From: Eledone cirrhosa | Taxonomy: Eukaryota | Direction: 5' to 3' | DNA length: 64,000 nt | Assembly: GCA_964016885.1 (NCBI GenBank) | Contig: OZ024742.1 | Span: 108,872,001 to 108,936,000, forward strand | Part shown: one piece after another, positions 7,174 to 56,959 of the stretch | Layout of the letters: the number at the start of each line of letters is the position of its first letter | How positions within the stretch are numbered: position 1 is the first letter of the stretch | Notes under the pieces: generated by a model | What the model was told of the DNA's origin: nothing | The model's input: the letters and a program-made list of their open reading frames with translations, nothing else | Databases searched by the model: none | Program-made: the position numbers and the translations under genes

Positions 7174-9225
7174 TTAAGTAGGACATGCAAAACAACGCTT
7201 TTCCATATCCCCCCAACAGACTGAGCAATACCTCGCCTGGCATTGGTTATTAAAGCACTGTCTACTGTTGCCAGTTTTCAATTTTTCGCCACATATCAAA
7301 CAAACGGGTTTCATTCCAGGCAATCTCTTCAAACAGGAGCTCAGTTGGGGAAAAACACGACTTAATGCACTTAGAAATGAATATTTCTCTACCAGTGTTT
7401 TCTCTTTGGCTAAACTACGCACGTATTCTCGCATGTAATTGATGTAACCTCGCCGTTTCTTCAGAGTGCTGTTATATAGGTAGAGTATCCTAGATTTCTC
7501 TCGTCTTCGGAAGAAAAATGCTGCGATCAGACGGCGTAGCCGTAGAGCAAATGATTCAGACAACATGAGAAACCATATTGCAATGTAAAACCCCAAAGTT
7601 TGATATATGATGCGTTTATCAGTTTTGACTGGTTTCGGCAGACAAAGAAAGTTGGTTGTAATTTCATCAATGGTGTGTTTTTGGGTAAAACTATTAAGCA
7701 TTGTTCTGACGATGTCGCTCATAAAACCAGTTCCCATGATGGCAACTTCGATTTTCTGGAAGCCCTTTTGGTGGTAATCAATACGACTTTGATTTTTTAT
7801 GATATTCAGAACGGTATAGATGATCCAATCGAACATTACAATATTTAGAATGACCACATAACGAACAATTAACATCAGTGTACCAGTGATTATTTTCTTC
7901 CTCTCTCCTTTTAATATTCTGCAACTTGATGGAGGAACGAGAGACTTCTCTTCAAATTTCCGTAATGGAAGCAAAGTCATCTTGTTATAATGACCTCTGC
8001 GAGAATCGATCTTCCTGAAGTAATCAGTTATGTAGATATTATCGAAGTTTAGATCAACAAGATAGTTCTTAGTGTAGCTGTAAGAATGGACAAGTATTAG
8101 AAGAAAGGTGAAACCTAAAATATTCATCAACATGTCTTGGAAGAAATTGATCCAGACTTGTCGTTTCTTGAACGTGTACATGATACTTCTCTGGAGTTCT
8201 TTCATCGTAGTAATGTTCACTCGTCTTTCTGGGTCGATAGATTTGTATTGGAAATTTAGTTCGTCGTTTGAGCCAAACGTCTCTATCATTGCTTTTTCTT
8301 CAGCGTAAACCTCTCCAAATCCTGATCCAATCACAGGCATCGAATCGCAAGTATATCCGATAAGATTTGGAACCAGTTTAAATATATCACAAACGAAATT
8401 GAAGGCAACCAATTTGCACATGATCGGACCAATAATTTTAACATTAGCTATACACTTGATATATATATTATCGATTAACTTTTTGCAATTTTGTATTCCG
8501 CTGTTGAAGATAGTTTGACAGCGGTAATCGCTCTTTTTTGCGTATCTCTTCTCGATTTTGTCTGCGTCCGTATCATCCTCTTTTTCTTTACGATTATTTT
8601 CGATCATGTTAGCGCGGGAATCAGTTTTCTGTATTTTATCAATAGCTTCAGTTTCTTCTTTCATAAATCGAACTTCGCCGTAGTTTTCTACTTCATTCTC
8701 TATTTTACTGAACGATTTTTTCATTTGATCTGAAAGTATTGTCAGCTTTACATCTGATTTTTTCAGTTCAGAAAGCGCGGTCTCTAGTGGCTTGCGGCTG
8801 AATTCGAACCTGGAAACTGAATGGTTCCTTATAAGTTCCGATGCACATCTAAAAGACGAAACAACTATTTTACCATTGAGCACAATACTATTGATCGGTC
8901 CTTGAACTAAATACATGACAGCGATCGTATGGAGGAAAGAACGGCCCCCTCTTCCGAATAAGTTCGGAACAACCAGCCAGGCCATACATCGCACCTGTGC
9001 TGAAAATGCATAACCAAAGGAATATAATATACAAAATATTGATCCCAGGTATTGCTGGATTACCACAGGTAAGCTAGATTGGCTAAGAATAACCACATAG
9101 AATGCCAAACTTATAAAAAGACCAACTGGGAATCCTACAATGGCTTTAACCCATCGATACTCTGACGGATCTGATTTAAGAACTCTGATGATAGAATATT
9201 TCAGCTTCGTAACAGACTGACTCAT
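7174..9225 (-). CDS. DCST1: DC-STAMP domain protein, DCST1/sneaky-like (sperm-egg fusion factor family), 683 aa, single coding exon
   Basis: Intact ORF with several TM segments and a Cys-rich ectodomain. It has FDNIYITDYFRKIDSRR...LLPLRK, RLRRLIAAFFFRRREKSRILYLYNSTLKKR, and a C-terminal C4C4 RING-like finger CLIC...CFNNQC...YCSVCWGDMEKRCFAC. Confidence 0.88.
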   Translation of the reverse strand: MSQSVTKLKYSIIRVLKSDPSEYRWVKAIVGFPVGLFISLAFYVVILSQSSLPVVIQQYLGSIFCILYSFGYAFSAQVRCMAWLVVPNLFGRGGRSFLHTIAVMYLVQGPINSIVLNGKIVVSSFRCASELIRNHSVSRFEFSRKPLETALSELKKSDVKLTILSDQMKKSFSKIENEVENYGEVRFMKEETEAIDKIQKTDSRANMIENNRKEKEDDTDADKIEKRYAKKSDYRCQTIFNSGIQNCKKLIDNIYIKCIANVKIIGPIMCKLVAFNFVCDIFKLVPNLIGYTCDSMPVIGSGFGEVYAEEKAMIETFGSNDELNFQYKSIDPERRVNITTMKELQRSIMYTFKKRQVWINFFQDMLMNILGFTFLLILVHSYSYTKNYLVDLNFDNIYITDYFRKIDSRRGHYNKMTLLPLRKFEEKSLVPPSSCRILKGERKKIITGTLMLIVRYVVILNIVMFDWIIYTVLNIIKNQSRIDYHQKGFQKIEVAIMGTGFMSDIVRTMLNSFTQKHTIDEITTNFLCLPKPVKTDKRIIYQTLGFYIAIWFLMLSESFALRLRRLIAAFFFRRREKSRILYLYNSTLKKRRGYINYMREYVRSLAKEKTLVEKYSFLSALSRVFPQLSSCLKRLPGMKPVCLICGEKLKTGNSRQCFNNQCQARYCSVCWGDMEKRCFACPT

Positions 9226-9280
9226 TATTACATGTTTTCAAATATAATATTAAGTATTTTGTTTCTGCTTCTTACTATCT

Positions 9281-52065: not shown

Positions 52066-52073
<8 letters not shown>

Positions 52074-52676
52074 TTGGAAACACACAGATACATGCGGACA
52101 CACACATATATATATATACATGAATGCAACCGCACCAACTGTGAGTTAAGGGTGCCAACTTCACCGATGTTGCTCAATGAATGACTGGGACAGACCAATT
52201 CAGTTTGAACTAGACTGAACCAGTATCAGAGTTAAAAATACATTATGAAGAGAGAAGAAACATTTAGATATAATTAGTAATAAAATGTATCATACCTAAA
52301 CTGTTCCTAAATTCCTCGACTACGTAGTTTCGTGGCATAAACAAAAACAATATATCAAAGATATAGAGTCCTTGCGAGGTCTGCCGACTTATCAAGAGGA
52401 TACCTCATTTTACTAGTCTCAAGAACGCGTCTACACGACGTGAGAAAGAATCCAAAAGGCGGAGGGGGAGATAGTCACGCAATATAACGGTCGAGAAACA
52501 GAGCTAAGCCTCCTATAACCACGAAGAAAATACCACGGAGGCGGAGGGGGTATTCATATTGAGGCCGTAGAAGAGGTAGTGAAGAAGGCGAGAAGTATGA
52601 GTAGTGGAAGCTTTCCAGTTGTCCCCACACTTCAAAGATTGCTCGACCAGAGGGAGTTATTAATATATTTGGAAAC

Positions 52677-52677
<1 letters not shown>
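52066..52677 (-). mobile_element. Non-coding ~600-bp element bounded by 17-bp direct repeats, containing a hammerhead fold
   Basis: taatatatttggaaaca at 52066-52082 and 52661-52677; no meaningful ORF. Confidence 0.65.
52313..52400 (-). ncRNA. Type I hammerhead ribozyme-like fold, U3-A8 core, GUC cleavage triplet
   Basis: tcctc-TTGATAA-gtcggca...tgccac-GAAA-ctacgtag-TC-gagga. Confidence 0.75.
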
Positions 52678-52724
<47 letters not shown>

Positions 52725-52733
52725 GTATATATG

Positions 52734-52764
<31 letters not shown>

Positions 52765-53134
52765 GTATATATGTATATATGTATATATATATATATGTAT
52801 ATATATATGTGTATGTATATATATATATATGTATATATATGTATATATATGTATATGTATGTATATGTATGTATATGTATATATATGTATATGTATATAT
52901 ATGTATATATATGTATATGTATATATATGTATATATATGTATATGTATATATATGTATATATATGTATATTATATATATATGTTTATATATGTATATGTA
53001 TATATATGTATATATATATATATGTATATATATGTATATATATATATATGTATATATATGTATATATGTATATATATATGTATATATATGTATATATATA
53101 TATATATGTATATATATGTATATGTATATATATG

Positions 53135-53167
<33 letters not shown>

Positions 53168-53220
53168 GTATATATATGTATATATATATATATGTATATA
53201 TATGTATATGTATATATATG

Positions 53221-53251
<31 letters not shown>

Positions 53252-53314
53252 GTATATATATGTATATATATATATATATATGTATATATATGTATATATA
53301 TATGTATATATATG

Positions 53315-53345
<31 letters not shown>

Positions 53346-53434
53346 GTATATATATGTATATATATGTATATGTATATATATGTATATATATATATATGTA
53401 TATATATGTATATATATATATATGTATATATATG

Positions 53435-53507
<73 letters not shown>

Positions 53508-54177
53508 GTATATATATGTATATATATGTATATGTATATATATCTATATATATGTATATGTATATATATGTATATGTATATATATGTGTATATATATATA
53601 TGTATATATATGTGTATATATATATATGTATATATATGTGTATATATATATATGTATATATATGTGTATATATATATATGTATATATATGTGTATATATA
53701 TATATGTATATATATGTGTATATATATATATGTATATATATGTGTATATATATATATGTATATATATGTGTATATATATATATGTATATATATGTGTATA
53801 TATATATATATATATGTGTGTATATATATATATATGTATATATATGTATATATATGATATATATATGTATATATATATATATGTATATATATGTATATGT
53901 ATATATATGTATATGTATATATATGTATATGTATATATATGTATATATATATATATGTATATATATGTATATATATATATATGTATATATATGTATATGT
54001 ATATATATGTATATATATGTATATGTATATATATGTATATATATGTATATATATATATATATGTATATATTTGTATATATATATATATGTATATATATGT
54101 ATATATATATATATATGTATATATATGTATATGTATATATATGTATATATATATCTATATATATATGTATATATATG

Positions 54178-54228
<51 letters not shown>

Positions 54229-54249
54229 GTATATATATGTATATATATG

Positions 54250-54287
<38 letters not shown>

Positions 54288-54375
54288 TGTATATATATGT
54301 ATATATATATATATGTATATATATGTATATGTATATATATGTATATATATATCTATATATATATGTATATATATG

Positions 54376-54410
<35 letters not shown>

Positions 54411-54889
54411 GTATATATATGTATATATATGTATATATATGTATATATGTATATATATGTATATATATGTATATATATGTATATATGTATATATATGTAT
54501 ATGTATCATATATGTATATATGTATGTATATATGTATCATATATGTATATATGTATGTATATATGTATATATATATGTATATATATGTATATATGTATAT
54601 ATATGTATATATATGTATATATATGTATATGTATATATATATATGTGTATATATGTGTATATATATGTGTATATATATGTATATATATGTATATATATAT
54701 GTATATATGTATATATATATGTATATATATATATGTATATATATATATGTATATATATATATGTATATATATATATGTATATATATGTATATATATGTAT
54801 ATATATATATGTATATATATGTATATATATATATATATATGTATATATATGTATATATGTATGTATATATGTATATATATATGTATATA

Positions 54890-54942
<53 letters not shown>

Positions 54943-55009
54943 GTATATATATATATGTATATATATATGTATATATATGTATATATGTATATATATGTAT
55001 ATATGTATG

Positions 55010-55042
<33 letters not shown>

Positions 55043-55191
55043 GTATATATATATGTATATATATATGTATATATATATGTATATATATATATGTATATAT
55101 ATATATGTATATATATATGTATATATATATATGTATATATATATGTATATATATATGTATATGTATATATATATGTATATATATATATATA
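52678..55191. repeat. Interrupted (TA)nTG satellite block 4
   Basis: Direct reading. Confidence 0.97.
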
Positions 55192-56959
55192 TCATCATCA
55201 TCATCATCAGGTTTAGCGGCCGTGTTCCACGCTTGCATGGGTTTGGACGGGGGTTTTCCCACTTGAGGCAAGAGTGGTTGTCTTGCTCGCATAGGACTGT
55301 CTGGCGGGTTTTCTACAGTTGGATGCCCTTCCTAACACCAACCACATTTACAGTGTGGGGCTGGGAGGTTTTTACCGTGTTGCCTACACGGCCACATTAC
55401 AGCGTGGACTGTCTGGCGGGTTTTCTACAGCTGGATGCCCTTCCTAACACCAACCACATTTACAGTGTGGGGCTGGGAGGTTTTTACCGTGTTCCCTACA
55501 CGGCCACATTTACAGCGTGGACTGTGTGTTTTTTGTCGTGACACCTACACGATCTCATTTGTTTCGGCCTGGATGTTGTGGGACCAACATAACTTTACAT
55601 TGAAAGGGGCGGTGTGGGTGGGGTGGAGGTGGTGGGACGGGGGGGGGTGTTTTGATAGAGATGCCTACTGACTGTAGTAGGTTTTTACTTTGTATTTAGG
55701 TAAGGCGGGTCTTCTCTATTACTGAGTACCGCCAAAGGTCTCGGTCCAGTGACATTGTCTTGGAGAGGTGTAAGCGTGTGAGGTCGGAATTTATCAGCTC
55801 GTCCCATGTTTTTCTGGGTCTGCCTACTCCGTGGCTACCGTCTATCTTTATTGCCCTGCACTTTGTTATACAGCTGTCGTCTTTCATGCGCATCACGTGA
55901 CCATACCAACGTAGCCTTCTCTCGAGTAAACAACATCTGATCCCTCTTATTTCTAATTTTTTCCTTAGTTTGTTTATGCTTTGCCGTTCACGTATATTAC
56001 TATTGCACATCCAGCGGAGCATGCAAGCTTCGTTCCTCTCTAGTCTGTGTATATCCTCTGCACACAATGCCCAGGTCTCACTGCCATGCAGCATTGCTGT
56101 TCGTATGCAGGCATCGTATAACCTGCCTTTCATTTTTAGGGAGAACCCTCTAGCGGCTAATAGTGGTATAAGCTCTCTGAACTTTTTCCATCCAGTTCTG
56201 ACTCTAGCTACTGTACTTTCAGAGCACCCTCCCCCACTGCTGATTTTGTCACCCAGATAGCGGAAGCTGTCCACTATTTCTATAGAACCCTCTGCGCAGT
56301 TGAAGGAGCTAGTATTTTGTGGGCACTTGCTGCTACTTATTGCACCAGAGCACCGGCCACATGTAAAATCTATGTTCTTAGTTAGCTTACCTGTGATCCC
56401 ACTACATCTTTTATGCACCCATACTTTGCATTTGGGACATAAAATGGAGTTTCTACCTACGCCTTTCCTACACACTGAGCATGGCCATTTCCCAGATGGG
56501 ACCGCCGCCTTATTTTCTTTCCTACAAACTAGAACTTTAGTCTTAGCCAGGTTAATTTTAAGGCCTTTTGATTCTAGGCCGTGCTTCCATGTTTGGAATT
56601 TCTTCTCTAGTTCGGTCATTGATTCAGCTATGAGCGTTAGATCATCTGCGTATAGGAGTTCCCATGGGCAGCCGGTCTTGAACTCCTCTGTTATAGCCTG
56701 AAGGGCAATAATAAATAGTAGGGGGCTAAGAACAGAGCCCTGATGGACACCAACTTTTACGCTAAACTCTTCACTATATTCGTTGTTAATTCTAACCTTA
56801 CTGACTGTTTCTTTATACATGGCTTGTATAGCTCTCACAAGCCATTCGTCAACACCTAGTTTTCTAAGAGACCACCAGATAATGGAACGGGGGACTCTGT
56901 CGAAGGCTTTCTCCAAGTCGACGAAAGCTAAGTATAGGGGTTTACTTTTAGCTAGGTAC
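55192..56959 (-). mobile_element. RTE-clade LINE, 5'-truncated copy of the 41288-44473 family
   Basis: ORF 55696-56916 is nearly identical in protein to the 3' half of the + copy. It has a (GAT)n tail and a 112-bp tandem duplication in the 3' UTR. Confidence 0.95.

What the first reader, a model, noticed from the sequence alone, without database searches (positions are those of the whole stretch)
52066..52677. Candidate non-coding ribozyme retroelement (retrozyme-like) inside the satellite
Seen: a ~600-bp unique island with exact 17-bp terminal direct repeats and no protein. It holds the cleanest hammerhead here: 5-bp stem I, UUGAUAA core, 6-bp stem II with a ~44-nt loop, a 10-nt palindromic stem III (actacgtagt) and a GUC site. 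Established: retrozymes are non-autonomous hammerhead retroelements with circular RNA intermediates, and solo PLE pseudo-LTRs look similar. Inference: the repeat is either a TSD or terminal redundancy from reverse-transcribing slightly more than one round of a ~595-nt circle.
Basis: partly seen in the sequence, partly recalled or inferred. Interest (0 to 1): 0.72.

Follow-up and report, generated by a model that had tools for sequence, protein, structure and literature searches.

The report
Hammerhead-type retroelement inserted in microsatellite
This 612-base island is one copy of a non-coding repeat with at least 6,000 units in this genome; it sits in TA-repeat DNA with the end patterns of Penelope-like retroelement insertions, so it was likely copied in through RNA, and it carries a motif predicted to be a self-cutting hammerhead RNA, which makes it a new member of the known "retrozyme" kind.

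Summary
There is an exact 17-bp direct repeat (52066-52082, 52661-52677), no ORF, and a hammerhead-shaped motif on the minus strand with a GUC site at 52318|52317.

The island is not unique. Its 21-nt core word occurs 6,031 times in the 3.0-Gb genome. The 17-mer is the first 17 bases of the next 595-bp unit, so it is terminal redundancy (1.03 units), not a TSD.

In a position-ordered sample of 56 loci, copies are short head-to-tail arrays set in (TA)n. Their ends are fixed at unit position 1-8 or about 173 on one side. On the other side they are variable or abut an inverted arm. This matches published Penelope-like element (PLE) insertions: AT-rich targets, both strands primed, internal start sites, and a "tail" at one end only.

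Only the minus-sense RNA is unusually structured (z -5.6 against -0.6). The motif has the U3-A8 core variant, a bulged long helix II and a palindromic helix III, all described for PLE hammerheads. An unrelated 319-bp family here carries the same core.

Rfam does not score the motif, and it also misses canonical-core, long-helix-II hammerheads in this genome. Self-cleavage, circular RNA and the partner PLE remain untested. Verdict: new member of the non-LTR retrozyme / PLE-dependent kind.

The parts
52066..52677 (-). One single-arm insertion of the repeat family: 595-bp unit plus 17 bp of the next unit (1.03 units). The inferred RNA sense is the minus strand. The RNA-sense 3' end is at 52066 (start-site class S1). 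The 5' truncation point is at 52677.
52066..52082 (.). First copy of the 17-bp repeat. It is unit positions 1-17 and overlaps the S1 start region (TAATATAT) that abuts (TA)n in other copies.
52661..52677 (.). Second copy of the 17-bp repeat: positions 1-17 of the next unit, where this copy ends against (TA)n. Not a TSD.
52313..52400 (-). Hammerhead-type motif (type I topology, U3-A8 core variant): stem I 52400-52396/52317-52313, core UUGAUAA 52395-52389, helix II 52388-52332, GAA 52331-52329, palindromic helix III 52328-52319, C17 52318. The predicted cut is at 52318|52317.
   Evidence: literature
52332..52388 (-). Long helix II: G-C and U-A pairs, a bulged C, GGCA/UGCC, then two further helical segments. 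It is kept in the MFE of the whole 595-nt RNA. The three shared family variants inside it all preserve pairing.
52238..52246 (-). Second fixed end or start site of the family (S173, ATACATTAT), 80 nt 3' of the predicted cut in RNA sense. It is internal and unused in this copy. In other loci it abuts (TA)n.
   Evidence: (loose (TA)n end at 52238), 60
51700..52065 (.). (TA)n(TG) microsatellite, left part of the interrupted target.
52678..53100 (.). (TA)n(TG) microsatellite, right part of the interrupted target. It is the same repeat type and strand as the left flank.

Best explanation
The island is a 1.03-unit copy of a 591-595-bp non-coding repeat family (at least 6,031 units in this genome) that lies in (TA)n microsatellites, and it was most likely put there by target-primed reverse transcription by a Penelope-like element (PLE) enzyme from a minus-strand RNA, which carries a hammerhead motif (U3-A8 core variant) predicted to self-cleave between 52318 and 52317.

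Shown directly:
- copy number, head-to-tail arrays and (TA)n flanks;
- two fixed ends (unit position 1-8 = S1, about 173 = S173) facing outward;
- variable inner ends;
- inverted two-arm insertions that always pair one S1 end with one S173 end;
- structure signal specific to the minus-strand RNA;
- all hammerhead core positions and three helices present.

Inferred mechanism:
1. Arrays are transcribed from the minus strand.
2. A PLE RT-endonuclease cuts AT-rich/(TA)n DNA on both strands.
3. It starts cDNA at the two internal RNA sites, S1 and S173.
4. It copies through one or more unit junctions, then stops at random or switches to the other arm's cDNA. Overlap at the inversion junction is 0-5 nt in 19 of the 29 composites of the position-ordered sample.
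5. The hammerhead, probably as a double hammerhead through the 10-nt palindrome and possibly helped by protein, would cut multimers to 595-nt monomers that a host RNA ligase could circularise.

Whether the template actually copied was such a circle or an uncut multimer is open; I put the circle at about even odds.
For: Family and arrays:
- 136 matches came from the 40 of 632 candidates that were scored; most full-length matches are 97-100% identical and many lie 591-595 bp apart.
- The 21-mer spanning stem I, the core and the start of helix II has 6,031 exact sites; the reversed control has 0.

Position-ordered sample (all 56 loci behind the first 100 listed places):
- 59 insertions: 29 two-arm, 30 single.
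- 83 of 88 arm outer ends are at S1 (39) or S173 (44).
- 79 of 88 outer flanks are TA-rich. Background is 2.7-8.8% of 20-nt windows in other loci.
- 18 of 30 single arms also have TA at the variable end.
- Over both samples, 49 two-arm insertions have their 3' ends outward and none has the opposite order.
- 44 of 49 pair S1 with S173, 5 have one unclassified end, and none is homotypic. Single arms use S1 and S173 25:21. The unit's internal perfect (TA)7 is not among the starts seen.

Literature match:
- PLEs form partial tandems plus an inverted 5'-truncated copy, with a tail often at one end only; Naiads target (TA)n (PMC8557442, passages).
- A purified PLE cuts and extends both strands at AT-rich DNA and starts reverse transcription at two internal RNA sites, 85-92 nt 3' of its hammerhead cut (PMC11167929, main text). 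S173 lies 80 nt 3' of the predicted cut here.
- PLEs are abundant in this genome: 10,596 GIY-YIG candidates, 150 of 150 scored match.

RNA:
- Minus-sense MFE is -168.6 kcal/mol, z -5.62, 0 of 100 shuffles as good. Plus sense is z -0.64.
- Of 43 shared family variants, 23 keep and 5 break minus-sense pairs (null 0.61, p 0.016). The plus-sense control gives 5 keep and 17 break.

Hammerhead:
- Descriptor hits: 1 in the window, 0 in 10 Mb random.
- The hammerhead-constrained fold is -21.5 against an MFE of -22.9 kcal/mol. Two copies co-fold into a double hammerhead at -58.9 against -45.8.
- The U3-A8 core covariation, a bulge in helix II, a 6-bp helix II and a palindromic helix III are described for PLE hammerheads (PMC4209133, passages).
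- An unrelated ~319-bp tandem/inverted family (3,326 candidates) has the same UUGAUAA core. It shows a compensatory GUAC/GUAC to GCAC/GUGC change, and one diverged copy has C3/G8.
- The motif lies on the strand that the end polarity independently names as RNA sense.
Against: - Rfam models do not score the motif even at E<=10. This is weakened by the control, where two canonical-core hammerhead-shaped motifs of this genome (families D and E) were also missed and family C scored only 21.6 bits.
- My descriptor was written after seeing the candidate.
- There are no RNA data: no listed run is on record as RNA, and the runs are kept as contigs, which cannot show ends.
- There is no pile-up of copy ends at the predicted cut (unit 252/253), so the genome gives no footprint of cleavage.
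- PLE minimal hammerheads cleave poorly in vitro. For the one PLE studied, ribozyme mutants did not affect insertion and unprocessed RNA was the main substrate.
- No partner was found. Only 4 PLE ORFs of about 10,600 candidates, their 3' UTRs and one APE-type LINE were compared, all without similarity.
- The unit (595 nt) is longer than the 150-450 bp reported for animal retrozymes.
- No C3/G8 subfamily exists within family A (0 sites), so there is no covariation inside the family.
- The lower variability of the motif region is not significant (4 of 95 sites against 38 of 440 at >=5%).
- The strict pairing of unlike ends is weaker in family C (9 unlike, 3 alike, 1 unclear of 13).
Confidence: 0.72

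Rival explanations
1. It is a PLE-dependent non-autonomous repeat as above, but the hammerhead-like motif is inert: a decayed or purely structural relic of a pLTR. Arrays would be copied only from uncut linear multimeric transcripts of older arrays, and no circular RNA is involved.
For: - No Rfam hit.
- No copy ends at the predicted cut site.
- For the studied PLE, ribozyme mutants insert normally and unprocessed RNA is the main substrate (PMC11167929).
- PLE minimal hammerheads have low activity in vitro (PMC4209133).
- Naiad PLEs thrive without canonical hammerheads (PMC8557442).
Against: - Every core position fits the hammerhead once the documented U3-A8 pair is allowed.
- There are 0 chance hits in 10 Mb of random sequence.
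- The same core recurs in an unrelated family with a compensatory stem change.
- The double-hammerhead co-fold gains 13 kcal/mol.
- There is strong strand-specific RNA structure, and the shared variants preserve pairing.
Confidence: 0.2
2. It is a solo or tandem pseudo-LTR of a coding PLE that I did not sample, so not an independent non-coding element.
For: PLE pLTRs carry hammerheads and form partial tandems. Only 4 of about 10,600 GIY-YIG candidates were examined as full ORFs.
Against: - In 95 loci with about 2.5 kb of flank on each side, PLE-protein similarity appears in 4, and never next to an array.
- Arrays end in (TA)n on both sides.
- No protein remnant is seen in the unit.
Confidence: 0.05
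3. It spread at the DNA level: extrachromosomal circular DNA or rolling-circle replication products captured at fragile (TA)n sites, with no RNA step.
For: Tandem, circularly permuted copies and one ~620-nt circularly mapping contig in each of two runs would also fit a DNA circle. (TA)n tracts are break-prone (recalled, not tested).
Against: - Polarity is strict: fixed ends at two specific sites always face outward (49 of 49 two-arm insertions), and inner ends are variable.
- The best TA microhomology in the unit is not used as an end.
- Structure and variant patterns are specific to one RNA strand.
Confidence: 0.03

Closest known systems
Animal non-LTR retrozymes (Cervera and de la Pena 2020, PMC7229834; abstract and passages read)
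   Same: Non-coding. Dispersed short tandem arrays (dimers to multimers). Low GC (0.41 here). Type I hammerhead once per unit. Highly self-paired sense RNA. Thousands of copies.
   Different: - The unit is 591-595 bp, against the 150-450 bp reported.
- The core is U3-A8 with a ~57-nt helix II and is not recognised by Rfam.
- Circular RNA and cleavage are not shown here.
- The (TA)n target, the two fixed start sites and the inverted two-arm form were not in the passages I read.
Hammerheads of Penelope-like elements (Cervera and de la Pena 2014, PMC4209133; passages read)
   Same: U3-A8 in place of C3-G8. Conserved G10.1-C11.1. A large helix II with a bulged nucleotide. A short palindromic helix III implying action as a dimer.
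   Different: Those motifs sit in the pLTRs of coding PLEs or in truncated PLEs. Here the motif is in a non-coding 595-bp unit with no detectable similarity to the 4 PLEs sampled. Helix II is far longer.
PLE integration: Poseidon PAc in vitro (Frangieh et al. 2024, PMC11167929; main text read) and Naiad/PLE insertion anatomy (Craig et al. 2021, PMC8557442; passages)
   Same: AT-rich or (TA)n targets. Both DNA strands used as primers. Internal reverse-transcription start at two sites. Partial tandems. An inverted 5'-truncated copy. A 'tail' at one end only. A start site about 80-90 nt 3' of the hammerhead cut.
   Different: - The two start sites are 172 nt apart here, against 30-40 nt.
- In PAc the two strands showed no difference in start site. 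Here each two-arm insertion uses each site once (44 of 44 classifiable).
- The enzyme acting on this family is unidentified.
Plant LTR retrozymes (PMC4918200; search listing and abstract only)
   Same: Non-autonomous, hammerhead-bearing, and of similar RNA size (600-1000 nt circles per the abstract of PMC5680766, listing only).
   Different: The plant elements have LTRs with type III hammerheads, PBS/PPT and 4-bp TSDs (as summarised in PMC7229834). None of these is present here.
L1 twin priming (recalled, no paper read)
   Same: Inverted 5' part with microhomology at the inversion junction; both target strands prime cDNA.
   Different: L1 primes at poly(A) and at a random internal site on a linear mRNA. 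Here both primings are at fixed internal sites and the arms exceed one unit.

Membership tests
Hammerhead ribozyme, type I | Conserved core: C3 U4 G5 A6 N7 G8 A9, G12 A13 A14, A15.1-U16.1, H17 | tested here: inconclusive
   All positions are present except C3/G8, which read U3/A8. That pair is a documented natural covariation in PLE hammerheads (PMC4209133). The strict consensus is therefore not met, but the variant consensus is.
Hammerhead ribozyme, type I | Three helices around the core, helix I open, G10.1-C11.1 closing helix II | tested here: met
   Stem I is 5 bp. Helix II is 6 bp with one bulge, plus an extension. Helix III is 3 bp with a 4-nt loop, or 10 bp in a dimer. The constrained fold lies 1.4 kcal/mol above the MFE.
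Hammerhead ribozyme, type I | Score at or above the Rfam gathering threshold (RF00163 and clan) | tested here: not met
   No hammerhead match at gathering score or at E<=10. Control: canonical-core motifs D and E of this genome were also missed, C scored 21.6 bits, and B scored 37.8 bits.
Hammerhead ribozyme, type I | Site-specific self-cleavage after H17 | not testable with these tools
   No RNA run is on record and the runs are kept as contigs only.
Hammerhead ribozyme, type I | Loop I / loop II tertiary contact | not tested
   No comparison with known contact motifs was made. PLE-type and mussel motifs often lack such contacts.
Animal non-LTR retrozyme | Non-coding unit in dispersed head-to-tail arrays, one hammerhead per unit | tested here: met
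   37 of 88 arms are at least 1 unit long, and 26 of 88 carry at least 2 complete motifs.
Animal non-LTR retrozyme | Unit of about 150-450 bp, GC below 45-50% | tested here: inconclusive
   GC is 0.41, which meets the criterion. The unit is 591-595 bp, outside the reported range.
Animal non-LTR retrozyme | Expressed as linear and circular RNA | not testable with these tools
   No RNA holder is listed.
Animal non-LTR retrozyme | Highly self-paired sense RNA | tested here: met
   z is -5.62 for the minus sense. 62% of bases are paired in the circular MFE.
PLE-type (GIY-YIG RT) insertion | AT-rich or (TA)n target | tested here: met
   79 of 88 outer flanks are TA-rich, against 2.7-8.8% background.
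PLE-type (GIY-YIG RT) insertion | Partial tandems plus an inverted 5'-truncated copy, with 3' ends outward | tested here: met
   49 two-arm insertions have 3' ends outward and none has the opposite order.
PLE-type (GIY-YIG RT) insertion | Two internal start sites, giving a 'tail' at one end only | tested here: met
   S1 and S173 are used. 44 of 49 two-arm insertions carry one of each and none is homotypic. The tail is 172 nt, against the published 30-40.
PLE-type (GIY-YIG RT) insertion | Sequence shared with an autonomous PLE of the same genome | tested here: not met
   No similarity to 4 PLE ORFs or their 3' UTRs. About 10,600 candidates were not examined.

The most novel reading that the evidence does not exclude
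Each two-arm insertion of this family records one integration event in which the two cut DNA strands primed cDNA on a single monomeric, hammerhead-processed 595-nt RNA circle. That circle offers each of two non-equivalent start sites exactly once. This would explain why the two outer ends are never alike (0 of 44) and why arms can exceed one unit, through rolling-circle reverse transcription. If so, these copies are a genomic footprint showing that the retrozyme circle itself is the transposition template of a dimeric PLE enzyme.
Probability: 0.3. Interest if true: 0.65.

Novelty: new member of a known kind. Interest (0 to 1): 0.42.

Why it matters
Animal retrozymes have been proposed to depend on Penelope-like elements mainly from co-occurrence and pLTR similarity (bioRxiv 10.64898/2026.07.22.740005; abstract and passages read).

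This family links the two by insertion anatomy. A non-coding, hammerhead-bearing tandem unit shows the (TA)n target, two-strand priming, internal start sites and the one-sided 'tail' known from PLEs.

The strict one-of-each rule for the two start sites is a simple, countable constraint on models of PLE integration. It could be tested with purified enzyme.

The case also shows that long-helix-II and U3-A8 hammerheads escape Rfam models, so ribozyme counts in such genomes are underestimates.

Tried and rejected
- TSD reading of the 17-mer: rejected. The 17-mer is identical in all copies and is the junction of every array.
- RNA evidence: no RNA holder is listed. Four runs of unknown kind were laid as contigs. 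X4 and X5 each gave one ~620-nt contig that maps circularly permuted, which a k-mer graph produces for a tandem repeat or a circle alike. X1 gave a very high summed depth, but its kind is unknown, so I draw nothing from it. X6 laid nothing.
- Partner search: an APE-type LINE with a TA-rich tail (L043) and the 3' UTRs and proteins of 4 PLEs show no similarity to the unit.
- C3/G8 subfamily of family A: none.
- Cleavage footprint: no excess of copy ends at unit 252/253. Peaks of variable ends lie in AT-rich stretches.
- Homology between family A and family D (482-bp unit, canonical core, similar architecture): global alignment score 220 against shuffles of 182 +/- 11 (maximum 208 of 50). This is too weak to claim homology.
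- Replicating the unlike-ends rule in family C: 9 unlike, 3 alike and 1 unclear of 13, so not conclusive.
- A covariance-model search for more U3-A8 families was considered and dropped. The genome search scores only the best candidates, which would all be family C or A.
- Other copies of families A-E in the window: none beyond this one.
- Earlier scan notes on this genome report 'scrambled' hammerheads in Naiad-type repeats on other DNA. I did not test them.

Full report
**1. Observation**

The island 52066-52677 lies between long (TA)n(TG) microsatellite tracts. The 17-mer TAATATATTTGGAAACA is exact at 52066-52082 and at 52661-52677. Frames lying wholly inside the island are 32-48 aa. The long listed frames are microsatellite read-through.

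On the minus strand the sequence reads UCCUC UUGAUAA GU(C)GGCA...UGCCAC GAA ACUACGUAGU C GAGGA. I make two corrections. Stem II needs a bulged C. The "44-nt loop" folds as a long imperfect helix that is kept in the MFE of the whole unit.

Rfam gives no hammerhead match, either at gathering score over the window or at E<=10 over the island.

**2. It is a high-copy family, and the 17-mer is not a TSD**

The own genome (3.0 Gb) holds the island at most full-length matches 97-100% identical at many loci: 136 matches from the 40 of 632 candidates that were scored. A 21-mer spanning stem I, the core and the start of helix II has 6,031 exact sites, against 0 for the reversed control.

Copies form head-to-tail arrays with a period of 591-595 bp. 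The 17-mer is simply unit positions 1-17, so the window copy is 1.03 units. The window holds no other copy of this family or of the other hammerhead families met below.

**3. Insertion anatomy**

To avoid bias I fetched all 56 loci behind the first 100 places listed (contig 1, 0-60.5 Mb). I added 39 further loci taken from the list.

In the position-ordered set there are 59 insertions, 29 two-arm and 30 single.
- Of 88 arms, 39 have their outer end at unit position 1-8 (S1), 44 at about 173 (S173), and 5 elsewhere.
- 79 of 88 outer flanks are TA-rich. The background is 2.7-8.8% of 20-nt windows in other loci.
- 18 of 30 single arms also meet TA at the variable end, so the target is the microsatellite itself.

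Over both sets, 49 two-arm insertions have the fixed ends outward and none has the opposite order. The inner ends are variable. In the 29 position-ordered composites the junction overlaps by 0-5 nt in 19 and leaves a gap of 2-59 nt in the other 10.

Arms have a median length of 518 nt. 37 of 88 are at least one unit long, and the longest is 2,907 nt.

Fixed ends on one side with variable or inverted ends on the other is the signature of target-primed reverse transcription. It names the minus strand as the RNA sense, which is the strand that carries the motif.

The unit's own perfect (TA)7 (positions 42-55) does not appear among the starts seen. The start sites are therefore specific and not mere microhomology.

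**4. The unlike-ends rule**

Of the 49 two-arm insertions, 44 pair one S1 end with one S173 end. Five have one unclassified end, and none pairs like with like. Single arms use S1 and S173 25:21, so independent choice would give about half homotypic pairs.

Craig et al. 2021 describe a 30-40-bp "tail", often present at only one end of PLE insertions (passages). Frangieh et al. 2024 map that tail to the stretch between two internal reverse-transcription start sites (main text). Here the "tail" is 172 nt and the rule is strict.

In family C, whose two sites lie about 30 nt apart, the rule is weaker: 9 unlike, 3 alike and 1 unclear of 13.

**5. Match to Penelope-like elements**

Published PLE features:
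- partial tandems, an adjacent inverted 5'-truncated copy, and microsatellite bias, with (TA)n for Naiads (PMC8557442);
- cleavage and extension of both strands at AT-rich DNA;
- internal initiation at two sites, 85-92 nt 3' of the hammerhead cut;
- a predicted dimeric enzyme (PMC11167929).

Family A shows each of the DNA-level features, and S173 lies 80 nt 3' of its predicted cut.

PLEs are abundant in this genome: 10,596 GIY-YIG candidates, with 150 of 150 scored matching. I read four ORFs of 636-1,096 aa with a C-terminal endonuclease. None of the four, nor an APE-type LINE with a TA-rich tail, shares sequence with the unit.

Arrays are not attached to coding PLEs. PLE-protein similarity is found in 4 of 95 fetched stretches, and never abutting an array.

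**6. RNA-level signals**

The minus-sense 595-nt RNA folds to -168.6 kcal/mol, z -5.62, with 0 of 100 shuffles as good. The plus sense gives z -0.64.

Among 43 variants shared by at least 4% of copies, 23 keep and 5 break pairs of the minus-sense circular MFE. The null share of "keep" is 0.61, p 0.016. On the plus-sense fold the same variants keep 5 and break 17.

The motif region is less variable than the rest (1.05% against 2.5% mean non-reference). The site count is not significant (4 of 95 against 38 of 440). The three shared variants inside helix II all preserve pairing (worked out).

**7. Is the hammerhead real?**

For:
- Every core position fits once U3-A8 replaces C3-G8.
- That covariation, a bulged and long helix II, a conserved G10.1-C11.1 and a palindromic helix III are all described for PLE hammerheads (PMC4209133).
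- My relaxed descriptor finds 1 hit in the window and 0 in 10 Mb of random sequence.
- In 1.42 Mb (both strands) of fetched real DNA it finds family A (219 hits plus 1 variant), family C (19), and two canonical-core motifs, D and E.
- Family C has a ~319-bp tandem/inverted unit and 3,326 candidates. It is unrelated in sequence but has the same UUGAUAA core, a 12-nt palindromic helix III, a compensatory helix II change in the two copies in L069, and one diverged copy with C3/G8.
- The hammerhead-constrained fold is 1.4 kcal/mol above the MFE. Two copies co-fold into a double hammerhead, -58.9 against -45.8 kcal/mol.

Against:
- Rfam is silent. In the control it found family B (37.8 bits) and weakly family C (HH9, 21.6 bits), but it also missed D and E despite their canonical cores. 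Its silence therefore carries little weight.
- My descriptor was designed after the fact.
- PLE minimal hammerheads are weak in vitro.
- No RNA data could be had.
- Copy ends do not pile up at the cut site.

I put about two in three on real self-cleavage, probably as a dimer or with protein help.

**8. Circle or multimer?**

Tandem and permuted copies, and the circularly mapping ~620-nt contigs in two runs, fit both.
- For a circle: the analogy with retrozymes, the strong self-pairing, and the unlike-ends rule. A monomeric circle offers each start site once.
- For a linear multimer: the PAc result that unprocessed multi-copy RNA is the main substrate and that ribozyme mutants insert normally.

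I leave this at about even odds.

**9. Verdict**

This is a new member of a known kind: a non-coding, hammerhead-type, PLE-dependent retroelement (a non-LTR retrozyme in the sense of PMC7229834). It has an unusually long unit, a long helix II, a U3-A8 core and a 172-nt "tail".

It is unproven on catalysis and on the circle.

Supplements of the cited papers were not opened. They may hold hammerhead variants or insertion-site tables that bear on how new the U3-A8/long-helix form and the (TA)n link are. My searches found no paper describing the one-of-each rule for retrozymes, but they cover only the held library.

Noticed in passing
L031-L042 (e.g. L032:1501-1545): Family B is another repeat with a canonical Rfam Hammerhead_1 (AUUGCC CUGAUGA GUCC..GGAC GAAA CAUUGUC GGC; 19 of 74 scored candidates over the cut-off). 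Its sense-strand 3' ends lie 45 or 146 nt past the ribozyme and abut (TA)n, the same architecture as family A.
   Followed up: partly
L058:476-558 and L061-L080: Family C has a ~319-bp tandem/inverted unit (3,326 candidates, 83-98% identical) with a compact U3-A8 hammerhead, a long closed stem I and a 12-nt palindromic helix III. It has two alternative 3' ends about 30 nt apart, like the published PLE 'tail'.
   Followed up: partly
L022:384-467 (minus strand): Family D has a 482-bp tandem unit with a canonical CUGACGA...GAAA core, a 53-nt helix II and a 10-nt palindromic helix III (ACCGAUCGGU), with cleavage after UA. It is missed by Rfam at E<=10.
   Followed up: partly
L148:7086-7167 (+) and L148:7521-7592 (-): Two further hammerhead-shaped motifs lie beside a family A array. 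One has a CUGAGGA core, an 8-bp stem I and a 6-bp helix III and was found by my descriptor. The other is a weak Rfam HH9 match (18.8 bits, E 2).
   Followed up: no
L043:5118-8976: A degenerate APE-type LINE (Exo_endo_phos plus RVT_1) whose 3' end runs into a TA/TAAATA microsatellite. It shows no similarity to families A or B.
   Followed up: partly
L057:1775-5062, L058:4809-7622 (-), L059:2488-5019, L060:4722-6629 (-): Long open PLE ORFs (1,096, 938, 844 and 636 aa) with a C-terminal GIY-YIG domain. Several are bounded by (TA)n tracts. The genome has about 10,600 GIY-YIG candidates.
   Followed up: partly
window 20361-23678 (minus strand): A run of ORFs that look like an LTR retrotransposon: a gag-like frame with a CCHC-type Cys/His stretch, then protease-, RT/RNase H- and integrase-like frames by eye. 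This is a GC-rich block (0.53) in an otherwise AT-rich window. No domain search was run on them.
   Followed up: no
window 7174-9237 (minus strand): A 687-aa open frame with several hydrophobic stretches and a Cys-rich C-terminus. It is probably a host gene exon.
   Followed up: no
window 28000-38000 and 44000-56000: Very large (TA)n(TG) microsatellite blocks (GC 0.08-0.12, GC skew near +1), interrupted by a few non-satellite islands. Only the island at 52066-52677 was studied.
   Followed up: no
run X1 laid on window 52066-52677: Summed contig depth is about 1-6 x 10^5 over the unit in a run of unknown kind, with 1,044 contigs laid. Eight contigs carry a (TA)n loose end exactly at 52238 (site S173).
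   Followed up: no
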